Of a DNA stretch of 64,000 nucleotides, positions 1-53,588 are shown piece after piece. Position numbers and translations under genes: made by a program. The notes below the pieces were generated by a model. It was not told where the DNA came from and ran no database searches. It saw only the letters and a list, made by a program, of their open reading frames with translations. Origin of the DNA: Blasia pusilla (taxonomy: Eukaryota); NCBI GenBank assembly GCA_050084515.1, contig CM114271.1, forward strand, positions 30,442,001-30,506,000, given 5' to 3'. Numbering within the stretch: the first letter of the stretch is position 1; every line of letters starts with the position of its first letter.

Positions 1-429
1 TATATACCCTAGGATTCATCCTAGACTTCTGCAAGGAGACCGTTGCTTATCGGCCAGGATGGCGGTCAGGTGACGGCCGGACGAGGTGGACGATCATGAG
101 GCGAGTCTATGACCACGTTGGCAGCTTTCACAGGTAGTGTTAGCTGACCAGGAGAGTTGTCGTAGGGGAACGCACATGCGGAGGATGTCCCAGTAGCGGA
201 TTGTCCCACGTAGCGACAGGCCATGGCGAGTGTCTCTTCCCATGTTGGCGAGGCCTCTTCACCATTGTGGGGTATGACTTGAGAGCTACAGCGGATTGCC
301 GATGACCTCGTGAGGCAGGCGTGGAGTCATGTTTTTATACCAGAGCAGCGAGAGTCACGTGGCGATCGGGTTCTTGGAGTGGAGACGTTGACCCCACTGG
401 ATACCACACCCGTTGTGTGGCAGTGCCTA

Positions 430-1080
430 GAGGAGGGTGTTAGGGTGTTAGATCTCTTCGGAGGGATTAGCACCGGATTGGCTGCACTATTGCAGGCGGG
501 CATACGGGTGCATCACTACCTTTATGTGGAGAGAGATGAGACCGCGCGGCAAGTATCATTATGTCACGTGGCGAGATTGGTCCAGAGGTATCCTGAGTTG
601 TTGCCGGGATCTCAACATACGCTACCCACCGACATCTCTTTGGTGGGGGCGCAGGATCTGGATAGAGTTGGCACCATTCATTTGGTGATTGCTGGATGGC
701 CATGTTGGGTCACGTGCCCATCATCCACGACTGCGGTGGACGAACCTGATACCATGAAAGGTACTGAGTCAAGCATACGGTGGAGTCCAGAGAGCACCAC
801 ATCTCACAGTGGATGCTATTTTGGGCTCAGGGCGTCGATCTCAGGTGGTGACACGAGATGATAGACCACCGTTGGCCATGGCCAATAGGGTGGGGGAGTT
901 GAGGGCAACCTTACCTACATTGGTGAGCTTCCCAGCATCCCATGCCTTTCGTCAGGGAGGGCCAGGCATGATTTGGGATGAGGTGACCGGAGCATTGGAG
1001 GAGCAGGGATGATTGAGGCATCCCGGAGACAGGTGTTGGGGCAGGCGATGGACCTTAAGTGTCTCACATGGATAGTCAGC
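430..1080 (+). pseudogene. DNMT3-like cytosine-5 DNA methyltransferase domain inside the retrotransposon pol
   Basis: Motif I VRVLDLFGGI (DLFGG at 451-465), motif II YLYVE, motif III DI, and motif IV LVIAGWPC (catalytic PC at 700-705). After a frameshift come a motif VIII-like GSRAHHPRLRWTNLIP (~707-754), a TRD-like segment (809-1012) and motif X-like RRQVLGQAMDL (1024-1056). Motif VI (ENV) and most of IX appear deleted. Confidence 0.88.
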
Positions 1081-1371
1081 CTAGGTATGGCTGAGCAGAG
1101 ACGGATGCGAGTGTCATCCATGCCGTCACGTCCACGTACAGGGTCTGTACAGGCATTGGCTGGGGGCGAGACGAGGAGAGATAGGCACCCATGGACTTCT
1201 TGGGACGTCGTTCGAGCAGAGAGTGCAAAGGCGGCTAGAGTAGCACATGTTTATTTTTCGGATGTGAAGCATGGTGTAGGAGGTCAGAGTCGATTGGCTG
1301 TTGCGGAGGTAGCTAGGGTTGCTACATAGCAGCCAAAGCCGGAGGTTGCGTCCTCTCCGAGTGAGGTCACG

Positions 1372-2800
1372 ATGGAGACTTGGGAGCATGTGATAGGTCT
1401 CAAGTTGATAGGAGGAGAGCGACGGCGGGTTCATAGGTTTCTGAGAGGGCATGTCAATTGTTTAGCCTTCAGTATGAGAGACTTGGGTACGCTGAAGGGT
1501 CCCAGGATACAGATTGAGTTGGCTAGTGATACGCCGATCTTTCGTCGACCCTACAAGTATTCTGATATGGAGCGAGCCTTGATTCAGAGCAAGAGTCAGG
1601 ACTTGTTGGAGGCAGGACTTGTGGAGTTATCACATGGGGAGTATGCATTTGCCACAGTCATGCCGGCGAAGAAGGATATGTATGGCAATTGGACGGATAG
1701 GCGGATGTGTGGAGATTACCGTCCTATCAATCGACAGACGAGGTCAGATCGGTATGCCATGCCTACTCCTGAGGAGATCTTTGATGCGGTAGGGCATGTA
1801 GAGATCTTTAGTACTTTAGATGTCCGTGCTGGCCATCATCAGCTTCCTATCAGGTTGGAGGACAGGGAGAAGACAGCATTCAGGGGGATAGATCGGTTTG
1901 GGAGAGATTTCTTGTATCATTGGCGGTTCTTACCATTTGGGTTGAAGAACGCGCCTGCAGAGTCTCAGAGAGTGATGGATAGGATTCTGGCTGGCTTGGA
2001 TTTTATACGATGTTACATAGATGATATTCTTATCTTCAGTTCCACGGTTGAGGAGCATGAGCGACACTTGGAGGAGGTGTTTCGGCGATTGCAGTTACAT
2101 GGACTGAAGTTACATCCAGGCAAGTGCAGATTGACTACTTGGGACACACCATATACCCGAGTGGGTTAGGCGTTCAGCAGATGAAGGTAGAGGCTATTGC
2201 GTAGATTCCACGCCCTACAGATGTGAGTCGAGTCCGAGCATTTCTTGGACTGGCGAACTTCTATCGACGGTATGTCAAGGGTTTTAGTGCGATCGCAAAG
2301 TCTTTGACCTTGTTGACGAGACTTGATCAGGTTTGGTTGTGGGGAGATGATCAAGAGCAAGCATTTCAAGAGCTCAAGGACACGTTGACGTCCTCACCCA
2401 TTTTACAGAGACTGGTTAGGGGTCGCCCATTCCAGTTATATACGGATTGGAGCATGTTGGGTCTAGAAGCAGTGCTTACTCAGAGGGATGTCGAGGAGAG
2501 GGAGTTCGTTGTGGCTTACGCGAGCCGATCAAACAACATTGCAGAGGCGAAGTACTGCTCCTACGAGGGAGAGTGCTTGGCTGTAGTGTGGGCCGTGGCA
2601 CATTTCAGGTGCTATTTATTCGGCAACCCTTTCATACTTATCACTGATCATTAGCCGTTGAGGTGGTTGATGGAGTCCAACAAGCTTACGGGAAAGCTTG
2701 CCATGTAGGCTCTATTACTACAGGAGTATGAGTTTGAGGTGGTTCATAGGTCAGGTCGGCTGAACCAGGATGCGGATGGGTTGAGTCGTAACCCATGTCC
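1372..2800 (+). pseudogene. Gypsy reverse transcriptase and RNase H
   Basis: RT: RMCGDYRPIN, FSTLD, PFGLKNAP, YIDD (2014-2025). RNase H: FLGLANFYRR, LYTDWS, VAYASRS, YEGECLAVVWAV, ITDH, ending NQDADGLSR. Confidence 0.95.
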
Positions 2801-3149
2801 AAGTCAAAGAGACGACATAGGAGCTTGATGGCACGGAGAGAGTGATGAGGAGATCGTGCCCGATTGGCATGCATATGCCTATCTTTGTTGGTTGACTATG
2901 GCAGGTCAACCATAGGTGATGACTCCAATGGTGGGGTTGGATGATGAGTCTTTCGATCCGGAGGTTAGTGAGGAGGCAACAGGTGGTCGTGATATCCATG
3001 ACGATGTGGAGGTTGTGGAGTTCTTGCGCACTGACATCATAGCGAGTACAGTGAGTGCTAGGGAGCGGGATCGGATCCTACAGAGAGCCAAGAGGTTCAA
3101 GTGGGAGGGGACTCATATTTTGCGGGTATGGGGAGATGGTAGGATACGA

Positions 3150-5410
3150 GTGGTACCCCATCCTTTCCAACGAGCACGTGTAGTGCGACATGCCCATGAG
3201 GAGTTGGGATATTTTGGAGTAAAGCGTTGTCGTATAGTAAAATCAACCAGTATGTAAATTCCTTTGTCATTAAGTGTTAGATAGAGTTTCATTAGTATTA
3301 AGTAAATTGGCTTAGAAAAAGAAAATTCTTATGTTTAAACCTCTTTATGGTGCCTCTTTTATGCGGGCCCAACTTTGGAAAAGGAGATAATAAATAAAAG
3401 ATGACTTTATAAAAGTAAAGTAGTTGCTTTAATGAAAAACAAAAGTAGTCTTGGTTGGTGGCTAGGTTAGTTGGGGTAATTTGGAAAATATCAAGTGGGT
3501 AAAAGAAGATATTTTGGAAGAGATAAGAGGAAATTTACTTGTGTCAAAATGTGATTGGTTAAGCCTTGAGAGGAAGCCATGTGACACAAGATAAGATAAG
3601 CTGTATTTCGTACTCTTGTGGATCCCTTGTGAGTTTATAAAGAGGAGGGACCTTCAAGGGTTCATCACTTTCTATTCCACATCTTGAGTCTTTCGTGTCA
3701 CTCTTGAGTGTATGATTTTGGGATTGCTTGCTCTTCCAATGAGAGTGGATCATCCCTGTTGGGAGAGTAACTTGACCATGGTCTATTCTTCGAGAGGTTT
3801 CGAGAGTGTGGTGTGTGTGTGGAGATGAGAGGTTTGTTACCTTAGAGGAGTTTAGTCATACTAAAATAGTGAATGTTTTGGCTTGTTACTTCCCCAATGA
3901 GAATGGATTACCCCTCTTGGGAGAATAACTCCGCTAAAACCCATTCTTGAGGAGAGTAGAGAATGTCTGTTAAGCATGGATAGGGATGGAGCACGAGTTG
4001 TGCCCGACTTTCCTTTCCTTAATCCATACCATGTCAAGATACTCTTTGTAGATAGGCACTGGTTCACTCGCTATTTAGTTTATCACTTTGGGGAGGCGTT
4101 CATGAACTAGGTCATTCAATCTCCAACTCCGGTGATCCTTCCTATCGTCACATATGGAAGGACATGGGATTGTACTTTGTATATCCTTATATAGCGATCC
4201 ATGGACGTCAATAGGCCTGCTCAAGTAGGATTTAATACTAGTTGTGCTATCTTCCTCGTAAACAAGCGTAAAATAGTTTATAGGGATTTTATAGTTATGA
4301 ATTTTGGGATCCGATGTTATGAGGAAGTGATCGCCTCGACACTTCCATTTGTGATACCTGTCGTGAGAGAATGGAGAGTATACATAATAATTTTATATTC
4401 AAAAAGGAGATCTTCTCAGAGAGTTCATCTTGCATCGACTGCGTCTGCCGCAACTAGAAGGCCTGCCCTTACTCGAAGAAAGACTCTCGACACGACAACG
4501 TACTTACAACTTACTTCAGGTGCAGTATTGGTGGCGCGGCATGCATACTGGGGTACAACAGTTTGTGGCCAGATGTATGGTATGTGACAGAGTGTGAGCA
4601 TCCTTCAATGTTCCCACTCTGCAACTACATCCTTTGCCGATTATGGGTTTAGGTTATCGATGGAGTTTAGACTTTGCGGGACCTTTGCCTTTGACGGGAC
4701 GTCATCATAGGTACGTGTTGGTCATGGTGGAGCATTTCTCCAAGTGGATAGAGTTGGTGGCACTACCAGACAAGGCGAGCGAGGGAACAACTTATGCGTT
4801 TCTAGATCGTGTGCTTAGTCACTTTGGTGCACCGGCGGAGGTGTTGACTGACCAGGGTACCGAGTTCAGGGGAGAGTTTCAGGCCTTGTGTGATCAGGCG
4901 CTGATAGATCACCGCACCACATCCTGAGATGGATGGGTTGGCAGAGAGAGTGGAACAGATGGTGAAGAGAGGATTGCACAAGAATGGCTTGCAGCGGAGA
5001 CAGTTGAGGGAGTGGGATCTACAGTTGCCATGGTTGGCTATGGGTTATCGCTTTAGTCGGCAGGCATCCTTGGCGTCATTTTCACCGTACTTTTTGCTCT
5101 TTGGGAGAGAGCCAGATTTACCTACAGCGATTCGACGTGACATGGCGGAGGTGTTAGATCTTGATGATCCAGATGTGTGGGTATAAGCATGTTCTCAGAG
5201 GGCAGAAGTTTTTCGTAGAGTTATGCCTATGGTCTTTGAGAACTTAGCTATTGCCCAGCATAGAGATACATTGAGGTACACAACCATTCGTGGAGGAGGT
5301 TATCGTCCAGGGATTAGGAGGTTTCATCCTGGAGATTACGTTTATTTACAACAGGCGGCACCCACGACGCTAGATGTCACTGCAGGGCGCACGATCCTAC
5401 GTGCGCGCGA
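3150..5410 (+). pseudogene. Gypsy integrase (split by nested solo LTR)
   Basis: Zn-binding region HAHEELGYFGVKR resumes after the insertion as TYNLLQVQYWWRGM. Core motifs WSLDFAGPLP, LTDQGTEF, GLAER and SPYFLLFGRE, then RRFHPGDYVYL. Confidence 0.93.
3228..4497. mobile_element. Solo LTR (1270 bp) of a second LTR family, nested in the integrase
   Basis: Termini TGTCGT...ACGACA form a perfect 6-bp inverted repeat. Flanks are gcgt (3224-3227) and acgt (4498-4501), a 4-bp TSD with one mismatch. Removing the insert restores the frame GVKR-TYNLL. Confidence 0.88.
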
Positions 5411-5555
5411 GGTATTATCGACTGGAGTCCTCATGTTGGAGGGACGGGATGGTATGGTTTGGACGGATCATGTGCGCAATTGTGCGCCATGTCATCTTCC
5501 GAACGTAGATGGGAGGGTGGATCCGAGCTTGGCAGTGGTACCTGCAGGCTTGAAG

Positions 5556-5696
5556 TGTATGTTGTGCCAATCTGCGATGGGTGCAGCCACCATGTTGGTA
5601 TGTGATGGTTGTTCTCGAGGGTGGCATATATCATGTCTAACCCCCCCTCTTGATGTGGTTCCCACGGGACGATGGATGTGTCTGAGATGTGTATAG
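5556..5696 (+). other. PHD finger (C4HC3) at the pol C-terminus
   Basis: CMLC...MLVCDGCSRGWHISCLTPPLDVVPTGRWMCLRC, in frame with the integrase C-terminal ORF 5223-5696. Confidence 0.93.
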
Positions 5697-5774
5697 GGTA
5701 GTAGGTCATGTCAGAGAGATGTGATATTTTCTTTTTGGAGTTGGGGGGATCCAACTGCCAGCTAGGGGGGCGGT

Positions 5775-5910
5775 TGTGTGATCTCCATGTATATGTATGA
5801 GTTGATTTTTGTACATGTGTGGATCGACCCGTGTGTGGGGAAGATCGGTGTTGTGTGGTGTAGATGTGAACAGCGGTATATGTTGTGTAGCGATATGTAT
5901 GCGCACGACA
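5775..5910 (+). repeat. Truncated 3' LTR of the DNMT/PHD Gypsy
   Basis: Lies directly after the PPT and has TG...CA ends. Its 136 bp match the reverse complement of 52982-53117 with about 6 mismatches (counted by eye). Confidence 0.85.
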
Positions 5911-6628
5911 CCTTGCTTTTCAAGGAGAGCTTCACTTCTTTCGAAAAGAAAAGTACCAAAAGAGGTAACCCCCTCCTCAAATTATAGTATAGATACCAGT
6001 TTATAAATATCGTGAGTACTATATGCATAGGGATTCGGGCAAGGTTCGGGAAGATTTTTTTGATATGCCAAGCGATTACTAGTAATATATATAGTTACCC
6101 GGTTTTTTTTCTTAAGTCATCGGCTCTGGCTGGAAATTTTTCATTTTCCAGGTTCATTTTTTGGTAAATTTCCATTTTATTCGGTGAAATTCACAAAAAT
6201 TAAAAATTTTCCGTGCCGAATTTTAGTCTCGATTCCTAGTCACCAGCGAGTTTTTGGCTTTTTTTATAGTCACTGGGAAAAATTCGGCCGTTGAAATTTT
6301 TGTAAGTAAATCTTTGGCCAGCAAGTATGGTCGGAAGATTTTCAGCCAACAAGCAGCGTCCTCTCTTTCCCCATTCATTCACTATCTTTACTCCAACATT
6401 CTAAGCAACCTAACTTGCAACACTCTAAAAAATTTCAACTTCAAACACCTCATGTCACTTGGTAGTAAATCACATATCATTTAGTAAGATATCCTTGGTA
6501 GGAGTTGAACCTGGTTCCTCCCACCAGTTGGGAGCCAAGGATCCTCCCCCTCTACAATACTTGGAGCCCCAAAGCTCCAAGTATTCTAAAAGGGCCCTAC
6601 AAAACCAACAAATCTAAATCAGAATATC

Positions 6629-8839
6629 CTATTTTATAGAAACTGCATTGTTGTCTCCTTCTACTTCTAATTCTACCTCTGAAGACAAATATTTTTCTGG
6701 ACTAGCAAAGATATATCTAAAATGAGCAGAATTTTTCCATAACACAAAAGACTCACCCAACAAGTCCTCATAATCAGAGGAAGGGCCTTCTAAGGCAATC
6801 CTCAAAACATCTAAGTATTTTGTAGACAACCTATTGCAAGATTTGCTCTTGATCATATTTTGAATGGAGAAAGCTCTCTCGCAAATAGCAGTACTCACAC
6901 ATTGGACTGTAGCAATATTTGCTAAAATCAACAAGTTTGAAAACTTACATTGCAAAGAGGGACCCCAACTTACCATAGCCCATAGGTCCCTAAAGTTGCG
7001 ATCCTTCCACTCTATGGTAGCCATCAGTTTGAAAGACTGAAACTCTTGTTTCACAATAGGAGAGTTAATCAAAGCAGGTTGCAATTGACCTCTAAGAGGT
7101 AATTGAGCTCCAAAGAAACCACAAAAATCATCTAAATCTTTACAGCCCTAGCTATTCAATCCCACCTGTCTAGAAGGCATGTGTAAGGGGTTTAGAATTT
7201 TCATTGCACCAATAAGATGGTTATCTCGAAATCGATCTTGCAAAGCTGAACATACACTTTCAACAAACTTGTTCTGAATGAATAATGCAGCCTCTAGATC
7301 CCTACTTGTGCGATCTCGAGACATCTCTATACTATGGAACCTTTTACCCCTTATCTCAGACTGTAAACGTTGGAGATAAGGGGATCAGGTAAAATGTGAT
7401 AACCTATGTCTTTAGAGAAGGTCGATGCATTCAAGTCATGTTTTTCCATCACAAAATTCATAGTGATGGAAGCTATCTCGGAATTAACAATGCTTCCTAT
7501 AGTGATAACATCCACAAACTTGTACTGGAAAATATTGCTCAAATTTGCAAGCATGGAAAGGATATCATCTAGAAAATACAACTGATAGATCATTTGGAAT
7601 GATCTTAACTTGTTAAATAAATGAGCAGCATTTCCATCATCCTCCGAAGGACAAAGGTCCCTAAAATAAATCAACACCGATTCTAGAGAATCACACAATG
7701 TGGAAACGACTTGCCATCGAGATAACCAACGTATTTTATGGTATCTCTTCATCACTCGTTTGGAATCATTGAACTTTTCCTACAAAGTGGACAAAAGTGT
7801 TCTCCTTTTGGAGGACCTCCTGAAGTAACCAGAAACAACATTGAGAATGGAATCCACTTCACTAGAGACTTCCTTGCAATCAACAACTTTTGCAGCAGAC
7901 AAAGCACCAAGATTTGTCTTATGAGCAACACAATAAACAGATAGAATATAGGGGTTCACCTTTTGCTTCATTTGTGAAGCTACCTCTGTCTGGCTACCTA
8001 CCATTGTCGAGGCACCATCACAACCAACGGCAACCATTTTAGAGAATTCTAACCCTCCATCCTTGATGAGTTGCAACAACATTTCAGTAATAACATTAGA
8101 AGACTTTGACTCACACTGAAGAAATCCGAGAAAACAACACTGTGCCTGTCCCTCTTCAATGAAAGTGGCAAACAAAACCAAATGACCAGTAACATATATG
8201 TCTGTGGACTCATCAATCATAATACCAAAAAAGGGAGAAGCTTGAACTCTTGAAAGAGTTCTTCTTAGCAAGACTTGGTTGATGAAATAAGACATTTCAC
8301 TGCAACTCCTTTCATCATGATAAAGATCTCTTGTAATAGGTGCGTTTACAGAAAGCAATAACTTACACAGATTGGGAAATTTCAGAAATGGCATAGCCTC
8401 CTTTGCAAGGAAGTATGCACACTTGAACAATGTAAGGAAGGCTACTTCATAGGTCCGGTTTGTGGTTGGCCATCGACTTCTTACCTCCATTAGCAGCCCA
8501 TGAGAGCTTGATATGCTCATTGGACGTGGCGTGGTCAGTGAACGCAGAGACTTTGCAATTAATTGCCCCATCTTTAGCAAAAGCAATCTTCCCCTTCCCC
8601 TTCCTACAGACTTTACAAAAAATCCTACCAAGACCTAAATCATAATCGATCCAGTCATACATTGAGTACCACACATCCTTCTAGGCAGTGCAAACTTTTT
8701 CAGGTAAGGCTCCACTACTACCTGATGCAGGTTGTTAATCTTTATCATCAGATGAGCCAGATAATGCAATGATATCTGGCACATTGTTTCGAGGTCCCTT
8801 ATCTAAGAATGAACTCATCGTCTTTTGTCTCTTGGCCAT
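6629..8839 (-). pseudogene. hAT-superfamily transposase (ZNF862/DUF4371-like), frameshifted
   Basis: N-terminal TTF-type Zn finger (W..YDW...IFCKVC...HATSNEH), MIDESTD, GCDGAS, CVAH, RWLSR and the dimerisation motif STAICERAFS. Candidate ATG at 8839. The element probably spans ~6.0-10.6 kb, with a candidate right end ...acccctg at 10577. Confidence 0.9.
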
Positions 8840-10639
8840 AATAACCAGTGAACTAGACTCGCATGTGAATCAATCTCTCTCTAAATGAACCCTAAATCAG
8901 AAAACATTTTAAACAGAGACATGTCTACAGAAGAAAATTCACAACAAAGGCTTGTGCAAAGCTAGTACAGAGAGGTAGCTATGGAAGAAATGCAACATGT
9001 GCACATCTCGGAAAGCTTCAAACTCATTCCCCAAGAGGATTTCCAAATAGTGGAATGAGGACTTCCAAATAGTGGGCACTAGGCACTGCTTGAGCGGTTC
9101 TCGGGGAGTCAGAAACTCAGCCGAATCTGCATAGTAACGAAAATTGAGAACGATTGAGTGGAGTCACGAAGCTGCGGAGACACGACAGAGATGCAGGCAC
9201 TTTAGAACTTCCTCAGAGCTGGACTGTCATGAAGCTGCGCAGCTAAGAGAGAAGGCACTACTACGGAGTCCAGGAGAACAACTTGCGAAACAACCTACGA
9301 AGTCACGGAGCCCAACCTGGAGAACAACCTGGTCCCAAGCTCAACGAAGCTACGGCTTCGTAATGAAGAGAAGTTGCGGCTAGCCGTGGAGCTCGCGGAA
9401 GCCAGAACTTTGTAACTACCAACACGAACTGCGAATTTGGGGAGCCAATGTGCAGAGTACGTTGGGGAGCCAACATAGAAGAGCAACAAACCGAAGATAA
9501 GCTACGGAGCGGAGAGAAAACAAGCTGTGAAGCGCACAAATCTGCTCCACACATACAAACTCGCAGAGTCCGGGAGAAGACAACCTGCTTCAATGCAGGT
9601 TTATGGTGGACTGCTTCGAAGTCAGCAATGAGAAAACGATGATGAGTTGCGGAGAGGGAGGAGTCTAGACTCCAGAGTGCAGCAAAAATCTATGCATCGT
9701 TGAGCAGCAACGGAGTCGGGTCCTTCTGGGAGAATCGGAGCTGCGGAGAGACGGGTACTTGGAGTTGGGGAGCAGCGGACTGAAAGGAGTTGGGGAGTGA
9801 GGAGTCCTGACTTGAGCGAGTTTATGTACTGTGCAACTGTGCAGCGCCGTCGAGTAGCAATGGAGTCGGAACTGTTGGGCCTTTTGGGAGCAACGGACTG
9901 AGCGAAGTCAAGGAGAGAGCAGCGGATCGAGCAGAGTCGCGGATAGAATCAAAGCTACGGAGAGTGCGGGGAGTCGGAGCCTCGGAGTCGGGGAGAGAGC
10001 AGCGGAGTGGTAGAGAGAATAGTGAGGATTGAGCTCGGGAGGGCTCGGTCTGAGGGTACTACCCCATGGCCCCACACGCTTGTCACCCAGCCGTGTCGCC
10101 TCTACCTGCCCGTCTCGGGCTGCCCCTCCTAAATCTTCACTTGAAGCCGTTGGATTTGAGTCGAACGGCCACCGCCTTAGGAGAAAGAGCGACGAGCTAG
10201 GGTTTGAAATCCTTCCCTCAAATTTGACGGTGACGATCTGCTATGCCTTTGGAATTCTCATCCAACCATCAGCTGTCTCCTCCAATCCCCCCTTGCCACG
10301 TAAGCCTAAAAATCGCCGGCCATCAAAATTCAAATCGGCTGTATTCCGGGAGGCTCATTTCAGGGAGCCGTCGGTTTCTGCTGATTTCAGACGGACGGCG
10401 GCTATATTCCGACGACTCCCTGCCGGAATGGGGATACTTTCCGTCATTCCTCTAGTGGCACGGTCACTTGCTAGAATGGCCATGTCACTCGCCGGGAACC
10501 CTGCCGGAACTTTGCCGAGCCAAACGGGAAAACGGAAAATCGAAAAGACTGCCGGCTAGCACTACTCGCGACCCCTGATCTGTGAAAACATTGGTTTATA
10601 TGGGTTTAGGGTTTCGGGATAAGTAGCAGGGAGCGACCA

Positions 10640-13389
10640 ATGTTGCGACTGTTACCGATCAAGGGAGGAAACTGCTCACTGGAATGAGGGATTGGGTTCG
10701 CGGAGAGGTCTGCGGGCGGGATTTATCTTGCGAGGGATGGCGCGGAGTTCCACCTGGAGTTTGTTGAGGACGTAATCGAAGATCTAGCTCTTAAGGTTTG
10801 GCAGACCTGTTGCCCGGGAGCTGCGATGGGGGAATCGATGAATGAGATGATGAATGAGGTTAAGAAGGCGGTGGAGGACAATATGATGCCCGTTCAACGT
10901 TTCATTTACTTCACATTGCAGGTATGTCTATCACGTGAAGAATTATGCGATTGGAAGTTTTATGATGACTCGCTGTGGAATTATGCTGTGACATCATCAT
11001 TCAAAATAGATTGGTTAGATGCCCACTTGATGGTTGTCTGCGCCTTACATGCTATTCTAAGGCGATACGTACCAGTAAGTGAAGTGAAATTGCAGAGTTT
11101 CAGACCTGAACGTGCAAATGTCATGGTTTGTTGTGATCACAGAAGTCTTTCTACGAATGTGGAGTGAACTGCTTCAACAATAGCAAGGCCACTCAGTCTG
11201 AGATTCAGAATTGCTTAAACAAATGTCAAGTCCCTTTGCAACGAGCGCAAGCAGTGGTCGACAACGAATTAACGAGGTTTCAGGTAAAAATTGTTTGCAT
11301 CGAGTATCCCAGAACTTGATAGATTTGAGTCATTCTTCATCGTTGGAAGAGTTCAATCTGAAGCCAGCAATCATACAATGTGCTACTGAGGTGGTCTCCT
11401 GCCTCCTTCGAGGGTTGACCGGAAGTCTTTTTATGAGCCACCTGGGCATGGAGACGTTTTTCTTCCGACGCGTTAAGCAATTATGGTTTAGAAGGCTTCC
11501 TTCGCATCAACATGATGACGCTCAGCACATTCGAAATTAGCATTACTCTGTAGGAATTAGCGCTAGTTTGAAATGGAATGTTGTTTCAAATATTTCTGAG
11601 GACTCTCACCGTACCATGTCAGCATTTCCAATTCATGGATGGATGTACCTCTTCTCCTCTGTTCACATAAATTTCTGGTACCTCTTCTCCAGGAGCGTTT
11701 AGAACGTAGCTTCCTGACATGTCGTGACAAAATAGAGGCATATGGTGGATCGATTGAAGAAGATGACAAAAAGGTGAAACAGATGGAGAAGTGTATGGAG
11801 GTGTCTTTGCGGGAACACATGAAGACACTGCCTCGTCTTGCAAATAACATTCAAGGGAAGATTTCAACATGATTTCCAGAATGGAGTGGGGCGACTTTTG
11901 TTAGCGTCGAGTCTCACAATTTCCGACTAGATGAAATATTTTGCCAACAATCAAATTGCAAGAAATGGGAGTCTGTGATCTTCTCAGTTGAGCCACACAT
12001 GGTAAGGGCTTTGGATATGCGGGAAAAGAATTAATAATACTGAGCTTATACACTGCCGACTCCTGCCTGTCACTCATTTTTAAGTACGGATTCCGAGTGG
12101 TCCGTAATCAGTACGTCTACTTCTTTGGGCCTTTTGGTGTCACTGTAGTTGTTGACATGTTCTAGCCCTTCCTCCAGACACTCACTTGTCCTATCTCCAG
12201 TCATTTCTCTGCCCTATCTCCAGGTACTGCGGGAGCATGTTCATGAAGCAACGGAAGTCTCTCCCTGCACCTTCCTCTACCGCAAATTACCTGGTGGAAT
12301 GGAGCGAAGACAAACATGTTTCTATGGCACAACAATTGGTTGGGATCTTGAAAGCGGGACTAGTGATATGTCTATGGCCTTTGGGTACAAGAAGCTCTAT
12401 ATGGACCAAGGGTCAAAATTAGTAAGGCTTATCTTGAGGCATAGAAAGTTGTTGAGTTGCTGCTCACTTTCAAGTAGGCAGCAAGACGAGGTTTACCAAG
12501 TGAATGAGTATTTGTTCAAGATTGAGATGTTGGGTAAACCTGCCCAGTCAAAAATTAATGAAATTGGGAGAATTTTCTGGTCTTCTGGTATTGATACCAT
12601 TGTTTAGCTCATGCAGTTAGTTATCTATATTCTGTGTGTGTAGGTGGTTGGTGCAGTGAAAATCTCAGACAGCGTCTCATGAACACATTAACAGTGACCC
12701 TTTTGAAACACTTGTAGCGGGGGAACATACATGTTACTAGCAAGGCGCATCTGCCCTTCCTTCTTCATAGGAGTCCAGAGCAGCAACTGTCTTTTATGTG
12801 TGTATTTCAAACTTTTGTACTTTGGTCCACTAGACAATGTGATCTTCTTGGTGGGAAGGAATGAGCCCGTACCTTTCATTCCAGGATGCTATGCAGCGAA
12901 GGCACACTCGAAGGGCAGTCGATTACCTGAGGCACGTGGACCTGTTACAGTTGGGGGGATCTGGGAATCATTTATGCTGAAGATCATAGTTATTGGACTA
13001 TCATTCTCGATGGTTGTGCCAGTGTACAGTACTCTGATTGCATTTAGAATATTTTCATGCAGGTCTATCATCTATCCCACTTTCTGCTCTAATTTTAGTG
13101 TTTAGTACGAGTGTAAGAATGACGTGTGTTATGTGACAATTAAAGGGGAATTACCAACAATTTTGTCTAAATCAAGGTGTGCATGAAATCGATGTGGAAT
13201 CACCGAAAGGGCTACCAAATTTTTCCTGTGGGATTGCAGGAAATCGCTCAGAAGATAGATGGGAACACTTTCTGTGGAATATTGTCTTTGAATAAGAGCA
13301 CTGTGGTACTACCTCCTGAGGTTCTTGGGGTACAACTTAATGGCAAACAGCTGCCACATTGCACAAATCTGGCAAGGTATAGGAAGTGA
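10640..13389 (+). pseudogene. Degenerate multi-exon gene of unknown function
   Basis: Coding-like segments are bounded by plausible splice sites (CAG|gtatg at 10921, ctccag|GAG ~11693, ATG|gtaag at 12001, ctccag|GTA ~12224) but contain in-frame stops. No domain was recognised. Confidence 0.35.
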
Positions 13390-26599: not shown

Positions 26600-29500
26600 G
26601 TGTTGATTCCTACCTTTGTACCTAGCGTGCAATATGCTCATAAACTATCAAGTGTTGTGGATATTGCGGTGTTGTGCAATTTAGTAATGCAATTTAGTAA
26701 CCCTCGAACAAAAATATGTATTGTTGAAGACCGAACCAATCCGCCATATGCATTATGCAATGGATTCATGAGAGATTACATAGTACCTCATCCACGTCAC
26801 TTCCATGTCTGTGATACTTGCATCTCATCTGGACCTCGCACACAAATCAATGTCTATATGACTCCAACTTACATTAGGCAATTGCTTAATGTGGAACCAC
26901 TGCAATTGTAGCTCCTTTCCATGGTTGACTCTAGATTAGGTGTAGAAAAGAAATTCAATGGCTTCCACATGGGATTTTTCACGGTAATATCTCTGCTAGA
27001 TTCACCTTTCATTGGTTTCAATCTCGAGCCAAATAGAATATTAAGAGAATCTCCTATTCTACATGCCATGCAAGAGATACTGAAAATAAAGCTTGAAATC
27101 AATCCATTGTACAGAGATTACAGAGCACTTATACAATTTCCAAATCCTTCATCTGGAATAATTATCCTTCATGAATCATTGGTCCAGAGAATAATTAAGG
27201 CCTCCCAAGAGAAAGGAAAAGTCACACACAGTATGAGCCACGATCCTTACCATCCCGATCTCCATATCCTTTAGGATGTTGCCTACTCCCTACCTATTCA
27301 AAGACGAGCTTCCATAAACATATTTGATAATGGTAGTATATCTCTGAGAGCAAATGCATATACGCGTGATAAGCTCTTGACTGATATATTCGGTGCTTCA
27401 ATAGATCCAAAACTCACGCTAGAGACTGCATCCTTCCCTTTCTTGTTCCCCTTCCATCGAGGCTATTTCAAAGGGAGCTCAACATTCTCTGACTATAATC
27501 GTGCTTGGAGCCGCCAATTGTTTAGTCCATTCTCTTTGTTTAAGCCTTATGCTTTATTAATGTACCATATACGACAAGCAATCGCCTTATGCTCTACTCA
27601 AAACATTTGTTCTAAGTAGGGAACTAGACTGACTTCCTAGAGATAAGCCCCATTTAAGTGATGCAAGCTTGTATCACCATCTTTCTAAATATTCAATTAG
27701 CCCTTAGATCCCAGGAAGCCTTTCATGGCATAGAAGGCATTTGAAAGATCTAAAGGCTATGTGTACACAAATGGGGCATGCCACATTTTTTCTTAACACT
27801 AACTTCCGATGAAGTATCTGCAACAAGATGGAATGAATTTTCTGATATCAAAGCTATACTTGCCAAGTTCAACCCGAACTTTACTTGGCGCGATGCTCCA
27901 ACTGAGTGTGCACTATTATTCCTACCAGGCTGCATTCTTTCCTGTCTTCATAAATATTTTCAGGCCCACATCTTTTCTGTAGAGTCGCAGAATATTTGCT
28001 CCGCTATGAGCTACAAGGCAAAGGTAGTTTGCATTGCCATATGATTTTGTGGCTCCATCCTGATGATGTTTACCGAATTGCATCAGAAATATGTTCATAT
28101 ATCCCATGTGCTGACCCTAGGCTGCATCTCCTGCATTCCTGGTCTACCCTCCGATCAAGTGATGAACTGTTAGGCCTAGTGCTTCAGAAGCAATTGCACC
28201 GCTGCAAGGAAGGAGTTTGCATAGTGAGGAAGCCATCCCAAAAACCATACTACCGCTTAGGATTCCCTGCTGATGTGAATCCTAATCTGCAACCATTTAT
28301 CGATCCACGTTCAATGAAGTGGAGTTACTTTAGGCCCTTAGCTGAGGACCGTAATGTCATTCCATACCATCCCCTAGTGCTCCTGCTCTGGGGAGCGCAC
28401 ATGAACATTCAAAGGGTAACCAATGTTGACTGGTCATTTTATCTTCTCAAGTATGCTTTGAAGTCAGAGCCCACTGGGTCTTTAGATATTGATACTAAAT
28501 CAGCTAAATCTCTCGGACTTGGTGGATTAGATGACATTAAGTTACGTCTTGTCTCCGGGGTTTTTCTAAAAAAACCTGTCTCATCTACAAAATCTGCACT
28601 AACCTCTCTTTAGATTCCAATTATATATAGGTCACATGCCATTCACTATGTTGATTACAACCCTCCCTCAAGGAGAACTTATCTCTACAAATCCGCATCT
28701 ATACCATGCATTCATCCCACAACTCTCTACGCAAGTAGGCCAACTGGCCTTGAAGAACTATCATCTTTGCTTATTGGAATAGGTACAAGATCTTGAAAGC
28801 CTATCCAAAGAATCCAAGTAATAAAGTTGTTGGATTGGATCACTTAGGTAATATTATGAGTAGGACTAACCGTCTTGTTAGATTCACTCAATTCCATCCA
28901 CTTCATCAATGGAACAAATTCTTTTATTTAGTGCTTCTAGAGAATGTCCCTTTTAGATCTAAGGGAACTCTCACATCATTCTAGGCCCACAATTGGATGT
29001 ATCTACAAGAGTGCGTTCATAGGAAATTAATCCAGGATATGCCTTACATTCATAAGCTCATTAGAGAACACGCAGTCAAAAACTTTGTGGAGTCAAGTGC
29101 ACGAGGCAAAAATAATTGCTAAAGCAACTAGCATTCTGTGACTGAGCTTGACATGGATATAGGTTCTTTTATCAATTTTGAAACTATTCATAGTGAAGTT
29201 GTCCATCCAGACAAAGAGGATTTGCCCAATCAGCCTGACATTGCAATCCTCAATCCTGAAGAGAAACTCCTATTTGCCCATATCACATCTCTTACATCTA
29301 ATTTAATCTTCCTTAAAGGAGGACTTGGTTGTGGTAAGTCTTTCTTTGTGAGATTCATGTATGATTACTCGAAAGCTATGGGAATGTCACCTCTACTCAC
29401 TGCAACAACAGGTATTGCCGCTGTTTGATTTCATGTAGAAGCTCTTACAGTTCATTCTACTTTCAACATTCCCATCTGTGGTGATATGCTAACTATGCAC

Positions 29501-38520: not shown

Positions 38521-38616
38521 AAACCACATGGGAACTAAGGGTTTTGGGCATAAGGTTTAGGAGTTAGGGCGTAGTTGGAACTAGAGTTCCTAATGAACTT
38601 GGCAACCCCTCTGTCA

Positions 38617-39867: not shown

Positions 39868-40428
39868 AGTCTCGAATTCTTGGAGGTTGTTGTTGTTGCG
39901 GGAGGACGGGGAGGGATGGAGAACTGTTGTTGCGGGAGGACGTTAGTCTCGAATTCCTGACCGACAAACTTTTTGAGTGAAATCGCAAGTCTCGAATTCC
40001 TGGCCTGGCCTTGGAGGTTGCTGTTGTTGCGGGAGGACGTGGAGGGATGGAGAACGTCTGGGGCAAGACGGTGTTAGTCTCGAATTCCTGACCGACAGCA
40101 TTTTTTAGCGAAATCGCAAGTCTCGAATTCCTGGCCCGGCCTTGGAGGTTGCTGTTGTTGCGGGAGGACGGGGAGGGATGGAGAACGTCCGGGGCAAGAC
40201 GGTGTTAGTCTCGAATTCCTGACCGACAGCATTTTTTAGCGAAATCGCAAGTCTCGAATTCCTGGCCCGGCCTTGGAGGTTGCTGTTGTTGCGGGAGGAC
40301 GGGGAGGGATGGAGAACGTCCGGGGCAAGACTGCGTTAGTCTTGAATTCCTGACCGACTGCATTTTTGAGCAAAATCGCAAGTCTCGAATTCCTGGCCCG
40401 GCCTTGGAGGTTGCTGTTGTTGCAGAGG
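39868..40428. repeat. 131-bp tandem array (~4.3 copies) just inside the left TIR
   Basis: The anchor (c/t)gaattcctgaccgac recurs at 39950, 40081, 40212 and 40343. Confidence 0.95.
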
Positions 40429-52981: not shown

Positions 52982-53588
52982 TGTCGTGCGCATACATATC
53001 GCTACACAACATACATTGCTCGTCACATCTACACCACACAACACCGATCTTCCCCACACATGGGTCGATCCACACATGTACAAAAATCAACTCATACATA
53101 TACATGGAGATCACACAACAAAAATAAAGAGTAGTAAAAACGGCATATCCGGCCTAAAACTCCACTCCTCAATCTACATCGGCATATCGAGCCTCGTCCA
53201 CCCTGTGCTATCAAGGAATCCGGACGCTAGCACCCTAGTCCTAGCTCACACATATACAAGGGAGGTGCTCCAACCTCAACATGAGATAGATGGCTTAGGA
53301 AAGCCATCTTCCTCTCTATATAGGTTGGGAAGAGCCTTTTGGCTCTTCCTAAAAATAACCCTTCCTTGATAAACTCGCGCAGGTTGCAGGGGCGGGTGAC
53401 CTGGTCAACAAGTCACCCGGTTGTAAAAGACCTCAACATGAAAGTCGCCAGAAACGACGTTCCTGACACAATGGACCTATCCTCAACCTCATCCGACACT
53501 GTGGGACAAAGTTACACTCAAGATAGTCCGCTCGCTCCTATGCCCTATCCACGATAGATCTCGGCCTATCGACTACTCAGATGTGACA
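52982..53588 (-). mobile_element. Solo LTR (607 bp) of the DNMT/PHD Gypsy family
   Basis: TGTC...GACA termini and a perfect 4-bp TSD acct (52978-52981 and 53589-53592). The terminal 136 bp match 5775-5910. Confidence 0.9.

What the first reader, a model, noticed from the sequence alone, without database searches (positions are those of the whole stretch)
1..5910. Gypsy retrotransposon carrying both a DNMT3-like methyltransferase (writer) and a PHD finger (reader) in an apparent land plant
Seen: C5-MTase motifs I, II, III, IV (GWPC), VIII-like and X-like lie in the pol region upstream of RT, and a complete PHD finger is fused after the integrase. Known: motif VIII/X wording resembles DNMT3 (AHRARYFWGNLP / RQRLLGRSW). 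From memory, DNMT-bearing retrotransposons have been described in dinoflagellates and the charophyte Klebsormidium; I do not know them as characterised in land plants. Inference: the family encoded its own epigenetic toolkit, perhaps methylating its cDNA or insertion site and choosing targets through histone reading. This copy is dead: the ENV motif is deleted and there are frameshifts.
Basis: partly seen in the sequence, partly recalled or inferred. Interest (0 to 1): 0.88.

Follow-up and report, generated by a model that had tools for sequence, protein, structure and literature searches.

The report
Dead bryophyte Gypsy element with DNMT3 and PHD
This is a broken copy of a plant jumping gene whose family carries its own DNA-methylating enzyme and a histone-reading finger; the kind was known from one green alga and is shown here to live in liverworts and mosses too.

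Summary
Window 1-5910 (+) is the 3' 5.9 kb of a Ty3/gypsy-type retrotransposon: protease end, DNMT3-like domain, RT, RNase H, integrase, a complete C-terminal PHD finger and a 138-bp terminal repeat. The copy is dead: about 230 bp (76 codons including ENV) are deleted from the DNMT, frames shift, there are at least 10 stops, and 1.27 kb is inserted in the integrase zinc finger.

The DNMT is not a one-off capture. Collinear relatives occur in Marchantia polymorpha, Calypogeia fissa, Sphagnum fallax, Klebsormidium nitens and 80 metagenome loci. One relative (L018) is intact: ORF1 protease-DNMT, an in-frame TAG, then ORF2 RT-RH-INT-PHD.

Relatives' DNMT domains match only DNMT3A/B/C at the top of sequence, profile and fold searches. 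They keep the catalytic residues and evolve at dN/dS about 0.13.

In RT trees the window sits with liverwort copies in the clade that holds the Klebsormidium element, the published KnitGypsy-Dnmt3 kind. A sister chlorophyte clade has the order RT-RH-DNMT-INT-PHD.

The '607-bp LTR' was not found; relatives carry split direct repeats (A...B-A-B). Verdict: a new, land-plant member of a known kind. Function remains inferred.

The parts
3..89 (+). C-terminal remnant of the aspartic protease region (frame 3); the element's 5' part (5' repeat, gag, most of PR) lies before the window start
   Evidence: tblastn of L018 ORF1 residues 800-828, E 3.3e-4; same motif 'RPGWQSGDG' in P0010 and P0013
385..705 (+). 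DNMT3-like domain, N-terminal third (frame 1): motif I 445-489, motif II stretch 517-540, motif IV GWPC 685-705
   Evidence: phmmer best hit 2.9e-45; 58-62% identity to Marchantia ORF1 proteins; DNMT3A E 0.004
704..705 (+). Deletion junction: about 230 bp (76 codons: QGHS to ENV, motifs IV-end to VI) missing, with a frame change from 1 to 2
   Evidence: blastn window 434-704 / 704-947 against L022 12546-12832 / 13062-13305; L018 ORF1 residues 1033-1108 unmatched
707..1003 (+). DNMT domain, middle and late part (frame 2, one stop): motif VIII-like 707-748, 'LPTLVSFPASHAFRQGGPGMIWD' 911-979
1009..1326 (+). DNMT domain end (motif X-like 1024-1071) and ORF1 tail (frame 1); 21 codons including ERERAMGF lost before it
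1327..1335 (+). In-frame ORF1 stop with its context, TAG CAG CCA (= UAG CAR YYA); the RT ORF follows in the same frame
   Evidence: same place in 23 of 56 related loci; motif definition from PMC3542737 (passage)
1330..2169 (+). Reverse transcriptase (YIDD at 2014-2031)
   Evidence: Pfam RVT_1 7.6e-26; 77% identity to Calypogeia fissa P0248
2127..2915 (+). RNase H and linker (frame 3, with stops)
   Evidence: Pfam RT_RNaseH_2 6.4e-30 on 2205-2654
2916..3227 (+). Integrase N-terminal region up to the first half of the HHCC zinc finger (HAHEELGYFG 3189-3218)
3228..4498 (.). About 1.27-kb AT-rich non-coding insertion that splits the integrase zinc finger; not part of the family
   Evidence: window 3226/4499 map to adjacent bases 15668/15667 of L022; RNA reads skip 3227 to 4523 (11 reads in 3 runs)
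4499..4927 (+). Second half of the HHCC finger (CMVCDRV 4574-4594), a stop, then the DDE integrase core (frame 2)
   Evidence: Pfam Integrase_H2C2 2.4e-8 and rve 1.7e-15
4920..5555 (+). Integrase C-terminal region (frame 3, one internal stop at 5184-5186)
5556..5696 (+). PHD finger (Cys4-His-Cys3) at the C-terminus of the integrase, then the pol stop codon TAG
   Evidence: Pfam PHD 1.9e-10, 41 bits against cut-off 24
5773..5910 (+). Terminal repeat unit 'B' (TG...CA), the element's 3' end
   Evidence: 95.7% copy elsewhere in the window; its last 40 bp are conserved in the 115-bp B repeat of relatives; reads run on unlike behind 5910
52982..53119 (-). Second copy of repeat unit B, without any coding part of the family next to it
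   Evidence: its upstream flank equals the commonest flank before 5773 in DNA contigs of run X1

Best explanation
Shown: window 1-5910 is a decayed copy of a Ty3/gypsy-type retrotransposon. It is cut at its 5' side by the window edge. It belongs to the green-lineage 'Gypsy-DNMT3' clade, on the streptophyte branch that also holds the Klebsormidium nitens element.

Shown in intact relatives: members encode ORF1 (gag with a CCHC knuckle, aspartic protease, and a DNMT3-like C5-methyltransferase domain with motifs in canonical order). ORF1 ends at a positionally conserved in-frame UAG/UAA followed by CAR. ORF2 follows in the same frame: RT, RNase H, DDE integrase, C-terminal PHD finger. The ends are split direct repeats (A ... 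B-A-B, or a single B), not a plain LTR pair.

Inferred mechanism:
- ORF2 is made by stop-codon readthrough. The methyltransferase would then be produced with Gag-PR, in excess over RT and integrase.
- The methyltransferase puts 5mC on the element's own cDNA or on DNA at the new insertion.
- The PHD finger on the integrase tail tethers the integration complex to histone H3 tails, as the chromodomain does in chromoviruses. From its nearest solved relatives, H3 unmethylated at K4 is the likely target.

This particular copy can do none of this: it has lost the catalytic core and every long ORF.

My confidence is about 0.9 for the anatomy and family assignment and about 0.3 for the functional steps. 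The figure given is for the anatomy and family assignment.
For: Domains in the window.

Collinear relatives:
- Window 387-5682 aligns in order with L001, L022, L005, L016, L027 and L034.
- The window's DNMT ORF is 58-62% identical to the Marchantia proteins P0166, P0172 and P0169 (P0175 57%), and the RT piece is 73-79% identical to P0175 and P0172.
- The RT is 77% identical to Calypogeia fissa P0248.

Intact relative L018:
- ORF1 is 1369 aa with DNA_methylase at 51.1 bits (cut-off 22).
- ORF2 is 1047 aa with RVT_1, RNase H, Integrase_H2C2, rve and PHD (2.6e-10).
- The two are in the same frame with one stop between them.

The in-frame stop:
- Present in 23 of 56 loci examined, and in 23 of the 26 with RT identity of 51% or more to the window.
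- TAG in 16 and TAA in 7; the next codon is CAA or CAG in 23 of 23.
- The exact CAR YYA context is present in the window, L018, L028 and L029.

DNMT3 likeness:
- phmmer with P0021: 29 of 29 PDB hits are DNMT3A/B/C.
- Profile A1: the top 29 are DNMT3A/B/C at 7e-16 to 2e-13. Next come M.HaeIII and tobacco DRM at 8e-6.
- AlphaFold model of the L018 domain: pLDDT 95.9. The Foldseek matches listed, ranks 1-50, are all DNMT3A/B/C entries, TM 0.79-0.83 normalised to the methyltransferase-domain targets (0.41-0.55 to longer chains).

Constraint:
- The catalytic Cys, the Glu of ENV, and the His and Arg of motif VIII are invariant in 40 sequences of both architectures.
- DNMT dN/dS is 0.13 for L018 against L029 (dS 0.26) and 0.12 for L018 against L028.
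- PHD dN/dS is 0.047 with dS saturated.

Trees:
- All DNMT/PHD-lineage rows separate from the outgroup rows (97 FastTree; 99 SH-aLRT IQ-TREE).
- The window groups with Calypogeia and Marchantia rows (98 and 97).
- The Klebsormidium row falls inside the DNMT-before-RT clade (92).
- In the DNMT tree the window sits with six Marchantia rows (99).

Repeats:
- A...B-A-B is seen in L012, L026 and L034; L001 shows B-A and is then cut by the locus end.
- A single terminal B, as in the window, is seen in L022, L005, L006, L011 and L027.
- This matches the legend of Fig. [quoted passage not shown]

Transcription of the family in the labelled organism: sense-oriented RNA-seq reads, nearly all 95-99% alike, lie at depth of about 1-11 over the coding parts in three runs.

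PHD: the nearest solved fingers are CHD4, PHF12, Cph2, PHF21A, KDM5 PHD1, KAT6A, ATXR5, UHRF1, DPF3 and AIRE. That these mostly read unmodified H3K4 or the H3 N-terminus is recalled, not tested.
Against: - The window's own DNMT pieces do not reach PF00145 at any threshold tried. For this copy the domain call is therefore by homology only.
- No copy from the window's own genome other than this one could be read, because no genome is held. Family structure comes from other genomes and from metagenome contigs of unknown host.
- The loci were fetched with an ORF1 (DNMT) query. They cannot show how many family copies lack the DNMT.
- 20 of the 23 stops are followed by CAA CCC or CAA CCT, not the full YYA. 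7 are TAA, and an ATG three codons later in that subfamily leaves other ways to express ORF2 open.
- Several DNMT-before-RT proteins (P0171, P0178, P0188) show no PHD at E<=0.001. The Klebsormidium protein is partial and ends before the place where a PHD would be.
- The KnitGypsy-Dnmt3 domain gave no methylation in yeast, which the authors called inconclusive.
- The split between the two architectures in the DNMT tree is weak (79), with one row on the wrong side.
- The trees use subsets of rows (see full report), and one is FastTree only.
- dS is saturated for all pairs but L018/L029.
Confidence: 0.85

Rival explanations
1. The DNMT-like domain of the family is conserved but is not a DNA methyltransferase in the life cycle. 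It could methylate RNA, or serve as a DNA- or nucleoprotein-binding module of the Gag-PR product.
For: KnitGypsy-Dnmt3's domain produced no DNA methylation in yeast (PMC5890265, section read). The same paper raises RNA methylation for a LINE-borne DNMT. In the bryophyte subfamily the domain sits in ORF1 with gag and protease rather than with RT and integrase.
Against: The catalytic Cys of PCQ, ENV and the motif VIII His/Arg are invariant in 40 divergent sequences. The fold matches DNA-bound DNMT3A/B structures best. The yeast result was called inconclusive because human DNMT3B also failed there. SymbioDIRS-Dnmt3 domains do methylate CG.
Confidence: 0.2
2. The two architectures (PR-DNMT-RT in streptophytes, RH-DNMT-INT in chlorophytes) arose by two separate captures of a DNMT3-type gene, not by one capture followed by a move inside the element.
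For: The insertion points differ. The split between the two sets in the DNMT tree is only weakly supported (79), and no host DNMT3 outgroup was available. Recurrent capture of DNMTs by retrotransposons is documented (PMC5890265 abstract; bioRxiv 10.64898/2026.05.21.726589, section 8 read).
Against: The two sets are each other's closest relatives in RT-RH trees against 24 and 13 outgroup rows (97 and 99). Their DNMT domains match each other at E 1e-40 to 1e-65, but human DNMT3 only at about 1e-10 to 1e-16. Both carry the same integrase-C-terminal region plus PHD, 43-48% identical over 165 aa.
Confidence: 0.2
3. The DNMT piece is a one-off: a host DNMT3 fragment captured by this copy, or a nested or chimeric join of two unrelated elements, one with DNMT and one with PHD.
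For: The copy is heavily rearranged (a deletion, a 1.27-kb insertion, frame changes). No second coding copy lies in the window.
Against: The same order PR-DNMT-stop-RT-RH-INT-PHD is found in one uninterrupted pair of ORFs in L018, and collinearly in many loci. P0278 has DNMT end, RT, INT and PHD in one protein. Contigs of DNA run X1 cover the DNMT bins at word depths of the same order as the RT-INT bins (3,482-25,541 against 11,830-47,057). The tool warns that this depth is not a copy number.
Confidence: 0.02
4. The Marchantia-type 'genes' and this locus are domesticated host genes (a host DNMT3 paralogue with retroelement-derived parts) rather than transposon copies.
For: Marchantia models such as Mp_8g17980 are annotated as proteins, and one UniRef name begins 'DNA (cytosine-5...' (truncated in the listing).
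Against: The proteins carry gag knuckle, protease and RT parts. Most related loci, and the window copy, are riddled with stops. Terminal repeats flank them. Reads 95-99% alike and very high contig word depth show many diverged copies.
Confidence: 0.03

Closest known systems
KnitGypsy-Dnmt3 of Klebsormidium nitens (de Mendoza et al. 2018, PMC5890265; abstract and sections 9-11 read)
   Same: A Gypsy-type element with a non-rearranged DNMT3-like domain inside its coding region. The domain is under purifying selection: Ka/Ks below 0.2 there, 0.12-0.13 here in relatives. Its repeats are 'the same as a DIRS retrotransposon'. A Klebsormidium protein (KFL_009030040, P0240) has DNMT before RT-RH-INT and falls in the same RT clade as the window.
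   Different: The hosts here are land plants (liverworts, a moss). The nearest subfamily splits the coding region at a conserved in-frame stop, so the DNMT ends ORF1. A PHD finger ends the integrase; the paper's main text never mentions PHD (0 occurrences), and P0240 is cut before that point. I could not see its figures or supplements. I did not confirm that P0240 is one of the published copies.
Chlorophyte Gypsy elements with a PHD finger, e.g. Gypsy-7a_cRei of Chlamydomonas (PMC9940879, passages read)
   Same: A green-lineage Gypsy polyprotein with a PHD finger as accessory domain, suggested there to guide insertion.
   Different: In Gypsy-7a_cRei the PHD is listed between RH and INT and no DNMT is described. 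Here the PHD is C-terminal to the integrase and a DNMT3-like domain is present.
Chromoviruses (Ty3/gypsy with an integrase C-terminal chromodomain)
   Same: A histone-mark reader fused to the integrase C-terminus. This is the analogy for targeting and is recalled knowledge.
   Different: Chromodomain-bearing rows fall in the outgroup of the RT trees.
SymbioDIRS-Dnmt3 / SymbioLINE-Dnmt (dinoflagellates), and EpiLTRs with DAM + DNMT + chromodomain (bioRxiv 10.64898/2026.05.21.726589, section 8 read)
   Same: Retrotransposons that carry DNA methyltransferases, some together with a chromatin reader.
   Different: These are different retrotransposon classes or RT lineages. The EpiLTR DNMT is sister to DNMT4, not DNMT3.
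Host DNMT3A/B (animals) with PWWP and ADD domains
   Same: The catalytic domain is the best sequence, profile and fold match. Pairing a writer with a PHD-type H3-tail reader recalls DNMT3's ADD domain (recalled).
   Different: No PWWP or ADD was detected in ORF1 of L018. The PHD lies about 1,400 residues downstream, beyond a stop codon. Motif IV reads GWPCQG rather than the GSPC seen in the DNMT3 alignment.
Type I leaky stop of tobamoviruses (UAG CAR YYA; PMC3542737, passage read)
   Same: The six bases after the ORF1 stop fit the consensus exactly in the window and in the three intact or nearly intact relatives.
   Different: Readthrough was not measured. 20 of 23 related loci have CCC or CCT in place of YYA, and 7 have TAA.

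Membership tests
Ty3/gypsy (Metaviridae-type) retrotransposon | pol domain order RT - RNase H - integrase | tested here: met
   Pfam hits in that order at 1330-2169, 2205-2654 and 4391-4927
Ty3/gypsy (Metaviridae-type) retrotransposon | gag with CCHC knuckle and retropepsin upstream of pol | tested here: inconclusive
   The window holds only the protease end (3-89). Relatives P0171, P0176 and P0178 have zf-CCHC and Asp_protease.
Ty3/gypsy (Metaviridae-type) retrotransposon | a pair of long terminal repeats | tested here: not met
   No LTR pair in the window. Relatives have split direct repeats A...B-A-B or A...B. The 5' end of this copy is outside the window.
Gypsy-DNMT3 lineage (KnitGypsy-Dnmt3 kind) | DNMT3-like domain, motifs in canonical (non-DRM) order, inside the element's coding region | tested here: met
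   Motifs I, IV, VIII and X lie in that order at 445-1071 between the protease end and RT. DNMT3 is the best match for relatives.
Gypsy-DNMT3 lineage (KnitGypsy-Dnmt3 kind) | RT groups with the Klebsormidium DNMT-bearing element | tested here: met
   The DNMT-before-RT clade includes P0240 and the window, SH-aLRT 92, and is separated from the outgroup at 99. In the FastTree run P0240 is unresolved at the base of the ingroup.
Gypsy-DNMT3 lineage (KnitGypsy-Dnmt3 kind) | [quoted passage not shown] | tested here: met
   dN/dS is 0.13 and 0.12 among L018, L029 and L028. This applies to relatives only; the window copy itself is decayed.
Gypsy-DNMT3 lineage (KnitGypsy-Dnmt3 kind) | DIRS-like arrangement of repeats | tested here: inconclusive
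   Seen in relatives L012, L026 and L034. The window shows only one B unit at its 3' end, and the 5' end is missing. The published figure is not visible.
DNMT3 family of host C5-methyltransferases | catalytic domain closest to DNMT3 by sequence and fold | tested here: met
   29 of 29 phmmer hits; the top 29 profile hits; every listed Foldseek match, ranks 1-50; the window fragment's top 27 hits
DNMT3 family of host C5-methyltransferases | PWWP and/or ADD reader domains N-terminal to the catalytic domain | tested here: not met
   L018 ORF1 shows only Asp_protease_2 and DNA_methylase at E<=0.001. So it is a DNMT3-like domain, not a DNMT3 orthologue.
DNMT3 family of host C5-methyltransferases | complete catalytic motifs (PCQ Cys, ENV) in this copy | tested here: not met
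   GWPC is kept but ENV and its surroundings are deleted. The motifs are complete and invariant in relatives.
PHD finger (PF00628) | Cys4-His-Cys3 zinc-binding signature above the Pfam threshold | tested here: met
   41 bits against cut-off 24, full profile 1-47; ligands listed
PHD finger (PF00628) | binding of a defined histone H3 tail state | not testable with these tools
   Only the nearest solved fingers are known; their specificities are recalled.
Type I programmed stop-codon readthrough | UAG followed by CAR YYA | tested here: met
   Window TAG CAG CCA; L018 and L029 TAG CAG TTA, L028 TAG CAA TCA; consensus from PMC3542737
Type I programmed stop-codon readthrough | measurable readthrough product | not testable with these tools
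   No proteomic or reporter data are available.
Chromovirus | chromodomain at the integrase C-terminus | tested here: not met
   No PF00385 in ORF 5187-5696; a PHD is there instead.

The most novel reading that the evidence does not exclude
A single ancient retrotransposon clade spans the green lineage, from prasinophyte-grade and core chlorophytes to liverworts and a moss. It has carried a DNMT3-type writer and an H3-tail-reading PHD finger together since before the chlorophyte-streptophyte split. The methyltransferase module has moved once between the RH-INT linker and the PR-RT junction.

In bryophytes the writer is translated with Gag-PR upstream of a programmed UAG readthrough, so it is made in capsid-level amounts. 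There it methylates the element's own cDNA or its landing site, while the PHD steers integration to H3K4-unmethylated chromatin. The result would be a self-silencing, low-damage insertion strategy that is still running in land plants.
Probability: 0.3. Interest if true: 0.72.

Novelty: new member of a known kind. Interest (0 to 1): 0.5.

Why it matters
Retrotransposons that encode cytosine methyltransferases turn the usual picture, in which the host methylates the transposon, on its head. In the text I could read, the only green-lineage case was one charophyte alga.

This locus and its relatives put the same lineage into land plants, including the genetic model Marchantia polymorpha. Mutants, methylomes and transformation exist for Marchantia, so the open question of what a transposon gains from its own DNMT could be tested there.

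Three points sharpen the hypotheses:
- The writer sits before a leaky-stop context.
- Split direct repeats are combined with a DDE integrase.

The locus itself is only a fossil.

Tried and rejected
- Pfam on the window's own DNMT pieces: no PF00145 at E up to 1 or 10. In relatives the Pfam match lies mainly in the deleted motif IV-VI part.
They gave only the 138-bp pair.
- Local alignments compared the sequence after 5910, and the sequence upstream of the second B copy, with the A repeats of L012 and L001. None was above shuffled controls (z from -1.4 to 2.0).
- tblastn of the element's ORFs against the window: self hits only.
- Whole-genome search: no genome is held.
- The look-up of encoding contigs: stated closed, not called.
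- Homologue search with the XTH-like ORF to name the host: 265 candidates, none at E<=0.001. The Atlas gave only 'Streptophyta' clusters at scores of 0.87-0.88, below the 0.9 lead level.
- Sequencing-run index: no RNA holder listed.
- CpG observed/expected: the element at 0.72 is like the rest of the window at 0.69 and like relatives at 0.53-0.75. This gives no signal for or against.
- Literature: four-term and phrase searches, and six Marchantia gene identifiers, found no description of DNMT-bearing Gypsy elements in bryophytes. That library lacks most subscription journals, and supplements were closed.
- A host-DNMT3/DRM outgroup for the DNMT tree could not be obtained from the tools. The trees are therefore unrooted on that question.
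- Complex prediction was not used; no binding claim is made.

Full report
WHAT IS IN THE WINDOW.

Stop-to-stop ORFs on the + strand of 1-5910, scanned against Pfam, give:
- RVT_1 at 1330-2169 (7.6e-26).
- RT_RNaseH_2 at 2205-2654 (6.4e-30).
- Integrase_H2C2 at 4391-4597 (2.4e-8).
- rve at 4598-4927 (1.7e-15).
- A full-length PHD finger at the end of ORF 5187-5696 (1.9e-10, 41 bits against a cut-off of 24).

The first 89 bases encode the end of a retropepsin region, so the window cuts the element at its 5' side.

- Motif I at 445-489, a motif II stretch at 517-540 and GWPC at 685-705, in frame 1.
- 'GSRAHHPRLRWTNL' at 707-748 and 'LPTLVSFPASHAFRQGGPGMIWD' at 911-979, in frame 2.
- 'RRQVLGQAMDL' at 1024-1071, in frame 1.

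The window's own pieces do not reach the Pfam DNA_methylase model (0 of 4 pieces). A direct PDB search with 385-705 finds DNMT3A at only E 0.004; its top 27 hits are all DNMT3A/B/C. The domain call for this copy therefore rests on relatives.

THE COPY IS DEAD.

Against the intact relative L018:
- ORF1 residues 1033-1108 are missing. These are the end of motif IV through ENV, about 230 bp by DNA alignment to L022.
- Residues 1209-1229 (ERERAMGF) are also missing.
- The reading frame changes at least six times.
- Ten stops lie inside the aligned pieces.
- About 1.27 kb of AT-rich non-coding DNA (3228-4498) splits the integrase HHCC finger.

RNA reads from the labelled organism jump from 3227 to 4523 (11 reads in three runs). 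Other copies therefore lack that insertion.

NOT A ONE-OFF.

An exhaustive phmmer of ORF 283-861 found 414 proteins at E<=1e-3. Named ones include Marchantia polymorpha and Calypogeia fissa proteins.

A search with the intact relative P0021 returned 97 long proteins. Among them are four Marchantia models, a Klebsormidium nitens protein, and proteins of Scenedesmus, Haematococcus, Monoraphidium and Cymbomonas.

A search with the window's RT returned, as best hits:
- Calypogeia fissa at 77% identity.
- Marchantia models that carry PF00145 plus RT.
- A Sphagnum fallax model that patches DNMT, RT and integrase parts.
- About 1,040-aa proteins with RT-RH-INT-PHD. One comes from a transcriptome, and one cluster has 226 member sequences.

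A scan of JGI metagenome contigs with an alignment of 16 ORF1 proteins gave 80 loci. The window aligns collinearly with many of them from 387 to 5682.

FAMILY ANATOMY.

L018, a 9.3-kb contig, is intact:
- ORF1 is 1369 aa, with Asp_protease_2 (weak) and DNA_methylase at 51.1 bits against 22.
- One TAG follows.
- ORF2 is 1047 aa in the same frame, with RT, RNase H, integrase and PHD.

Related ORF1 proteins carry a CCHC knuckle. The ORF1 profile also touches retroviral nucleocapsids and a Copia capsid protein in the PDB.

The stop is positionally conserved. It is present in 23 of 56 loci examined, and in 23 of the 26 with at least 51% RT identity to the window. Of the other three, L006 has a sense codon there and L013 and L030 are misaligned. 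About 30 loci of a more distant subfamily read through without a stop. Of the 23 stops, 16 are TAG and 7 TAA, and the next codon is CAA or CAG in all 23.

The window (TAG CAG CCA), L018 and L029 (TAG CAG TTA) and L028 (TAG CAA TCA) fit the tobamovirus type I readthrough consensus UAG CAR YYA exactly (consensus from a passage of PMC3542737). The degenerate subfamily has CAA CCC or CAA CCT.

That ORF2 is made by readthrough is my inference. If so, the methyltransferase is made with Gag-PR and in excess over RT and integrase.

THE METHYLTRANSFERASE IS DNMT3-LIKE AND CONSTRAINED.

- phmmer of P0021 against all PDB chains: 29 of 29 hits are DNMT3A/B/C.
- The ORF1 profile: the top 29 are DNMT3A/B/C (7e-16 to 2e-13). 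Then come M.HaeIII and tobacco DRM (8e-6), M.HhaI (7e-5) and DRM2 (4e-3). No DNMT1 appears among the 60 shown.
- An AlphaFold2 model of the L018 domain, built on a 40-sequence alignment, has pLDDT 95.9. The Foldseek matches listed (ranks 1-50) are all DNMT3A/B/C entries, with TM 0.79-0.83 normalised to the methyltransferase-domain targets and 0.41-0.55 to longer chains.
- The catalytic Cys, the Glu of ENV, and the His and Arg of motif VIII are invariant across 40 sequences of both architectures.
- Nei-Gojobori estimates over 328 codons give dN/dS 0.13 for L018 against L029 (dS 0.26) and 0.12 for L018 against L028 (dS saturated).
- ORF2 domains, including the PHD, give 0.03-0.05 with saturated dS.
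- No PWWP or ADD domain is detected. This is a DNMT3-like domain, not a DNMT3 orthologue.

TWO ARCHITECTURES, ONE CLADE.

Pfam positions and a BLAST-based table of 180 proteins with RT-RH coverage show:
- DNMT before RT in 13 rows. These include the Klebsormidium and Marchantia proteins, metagenome proteins and L018.
- DNMT after RNase H and before the integrase in 67 rows. All the named ones are the chlorophyte proteins, and 55 of the 67 have a PHD.

Trees:
- FastTree on RT-RH, 92 rows. These were all 13 'before' rows, all 15 ORF2-with-PHD rows, 26 of the 67 'after' rows, 13 near rows, 24 randomly drawn other Gypsy rows, and the window. The DNMT/PHD lineage falls on one side of a branch (97) and the 'after' rows form one clade (95). 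The window groups with Calypogeia and Marchantia rows (98).
- IQ-TREE quick on 55 rows, with seven long-branch rows dropped and the rest subsampled at random. It gives 99 for ingroup against outgroup, 99 for the 'after' clade and 92 for the 'before' clade. The 'before' clade includes the Klebsormidium row and the window.
- The DNMT tree (57 rows, no outgroup available) places the window with six Marchantia rows (99). It splits the two architectures only weakly (79), with one row misplaced.

The PHD-bearing integrase tail of the window is 43-48% identical over about 165 residues to that of the chlorophyte proteins.

One capture followed by relocation is the simpler reading. Two captures are not excluded.

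ENDS OF THE ELEMENT.

After the pol stop (5694-5696) comes a 138-bp unit (5773-5910, TG...CA). It recurs at 53119-52982 on the other strand, with no coding part beside it.

In relatives, a 343-bp repeat A lies upstream of ORF1 in 8 loci. A 115-bp repeat B lies after the PHD; its last 40 bp are conserved with the window's unit. Nine loci have at least 340 bp after B:
- Four continue B-A: L012, L026, L034 and L001. A second B follows in the three that are long enough.
- Five end with a single B, as the window does: L022, L005, L006, L011 and L027.

This A...B-A-B layout is the split-direct-repeat pattern. It agrees with the legend of Fig. 4c of PMC5890265, which says the Klebsormidium element has repeats 'the same as that of a DIRS retrotransposon'.

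Reads that run on behind 5910 continue in several unlike ways (agreement 0.57-0.69). Contigs reaching 5773 from the left mostly carry the flank seen at the second copy. How the single-B form arises is not settled; recombination between B1 and B2 is my guess.

EXPRESSION AND COPY SIGNAL IN THE LABELLED ORGANISM.

Three 2026 RNA-seq runs of the same (coded) species label place 531, 875 and 690 reads on 1-9000. Almost all are 95-99% alike rather than 99% or more, so they come from sister copies. First mates fall on the minus strand. For the usual stranded libraries this means sense RNA.

Depth is about 1-11 over the coding parts and 100-200 over the inserted repeat. Contigs of the best DNA holder cover the DNMT bins at word depths of the same order as the RT-INT bins, and 10-1000 times above the flank 6001-9000. 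The tool warns that this depth is not a copy number.

THE PHD FINGER.

Its nearest solved relatives by sequence are CHD4, PHF12, Cph2, PHF21A, KDM5 PHD1, KAT6A, ATXR5, UHRF1, DPF3 and AIRE. From memory, these mostly read unmodified H3K4 or the H3 N-terminus rather than H3K4me3. This is a lead for the targeting hypothesis, not a test.

WHAT IS KNOWN.

- PMC5890265 (abstract and sections 9-11 read) describes KnitGypsy-Dnmt3 in Klebsormidium only. Its main text does not mention PHD, Marchantia or liverworts. It reports no activity of that domain in yeast and calls the result inconclusive.
- A 2026 preprint (10.64898/2026.05.21.726589, section 8 read) refers to 'streptophytes (Gypsy-DNMT3)'. It describes other elements with DAM + DNMT + chromodomain.
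- PMC9940879 (passages read) describes a PHD finger in Chlamydomonas Gypsy-7a_cRei.
- Searches for bryophyte cases and for six Marchantia identifiers found nothing. The library is incomplete, supplements were closed, and the figures of PMC5890265 may already show more than its text.

VERDICT.

The locus itself is a fossil.

The family is a land-plant branch of a published kind. It adds three features: an integrase-fused PHD, a DNMT placed in ORF1 before a leaky-stop context, and a sister clade across the chlorophytes. These features are worth a specialist's attention but are not a new category. Function is still untested.

Noticed in passing
window 3228-4498: A 1.27-kb AT-rich (39% GC) non-coding insert inside the integrase. 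It is far more abundant than its host element in RNA (depth 100-200 at 3300-3600, sense to the + strand) and in DNA contigs. Many reads show other flanks at 3183, 3227 and 3228. It is probably a separate high-copy, transcribed non-autonomous repeat.
   Followed up: partly
window 6629-8634 (-): ORFs of 172 and 284 aa next to the element. The first has a weak hAT C-terminal dimerisation match (21.0 bits, just under the 21.4 cut-off). This is a decayed hAT transposase beside the element's 3' end.
   Followed up: partly
window 57530-58342 (+): ORF with Glyco_hydro_16 and XET_C (xyloglucan endotransglycosylase/hydrolase) matches, the only clear host-gene piece seen. A homologue search with the whole stop-to-stop ORF found nothing at E<=0.001.
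   Followed up: partly
window 37826-38597 and 39879-40402: Two tandem arrays: units of about 223 bp (4 copies, 61-73% alike) and 131 bp (262-nt register, 90-92% alike).
   Followed up: no
window 27954-28613 (+): Weak Helitron_like_N match (21.4 bits, below the 28.9 cut-off).
   Followed up: no
window 1-6000: Strong positive GC skew (0.19-0.27) and CpA excess (observed/expected 1.54) on the element's sense strand. Intact and decayed relatives share the CpA excess (1.36-1.53).
   Followed up: partly
proteins P0190, P0195, P0198, P0222, P0206, P0242, P0244: Proteins of Scenedesmus, Haematococcus, Monoraphidium and Cymbomonas have the order RT-RH-DNMT3-like-INT-PHD. I found no description of DNMT3-type Gypsy elements in chlorophytes in the papers searched.
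   Followed up: partly
proteins P0038 and P0041: P0038 (1417 aa) carries both a Dam adenine-methylase match and a C5 DNA_methylase match. P0041 has a G-patch domain between its DNMT and its integrase.
   Followed up: no
L032, L038, L050 and about 30 further loci: A more distant metagenome subfamily (about 40% RT identity to the window) has no stop between DNMT and RT. The ORF1/ORF2 split is therefore a subfamily trait.
   Followed up: partly
window 606-680: RNA reads from sister copies skip 73 bases here (10 reads in three runs). This looks like an indel difference among copies inside the DNMT N-terminal part.
   Followed up: no
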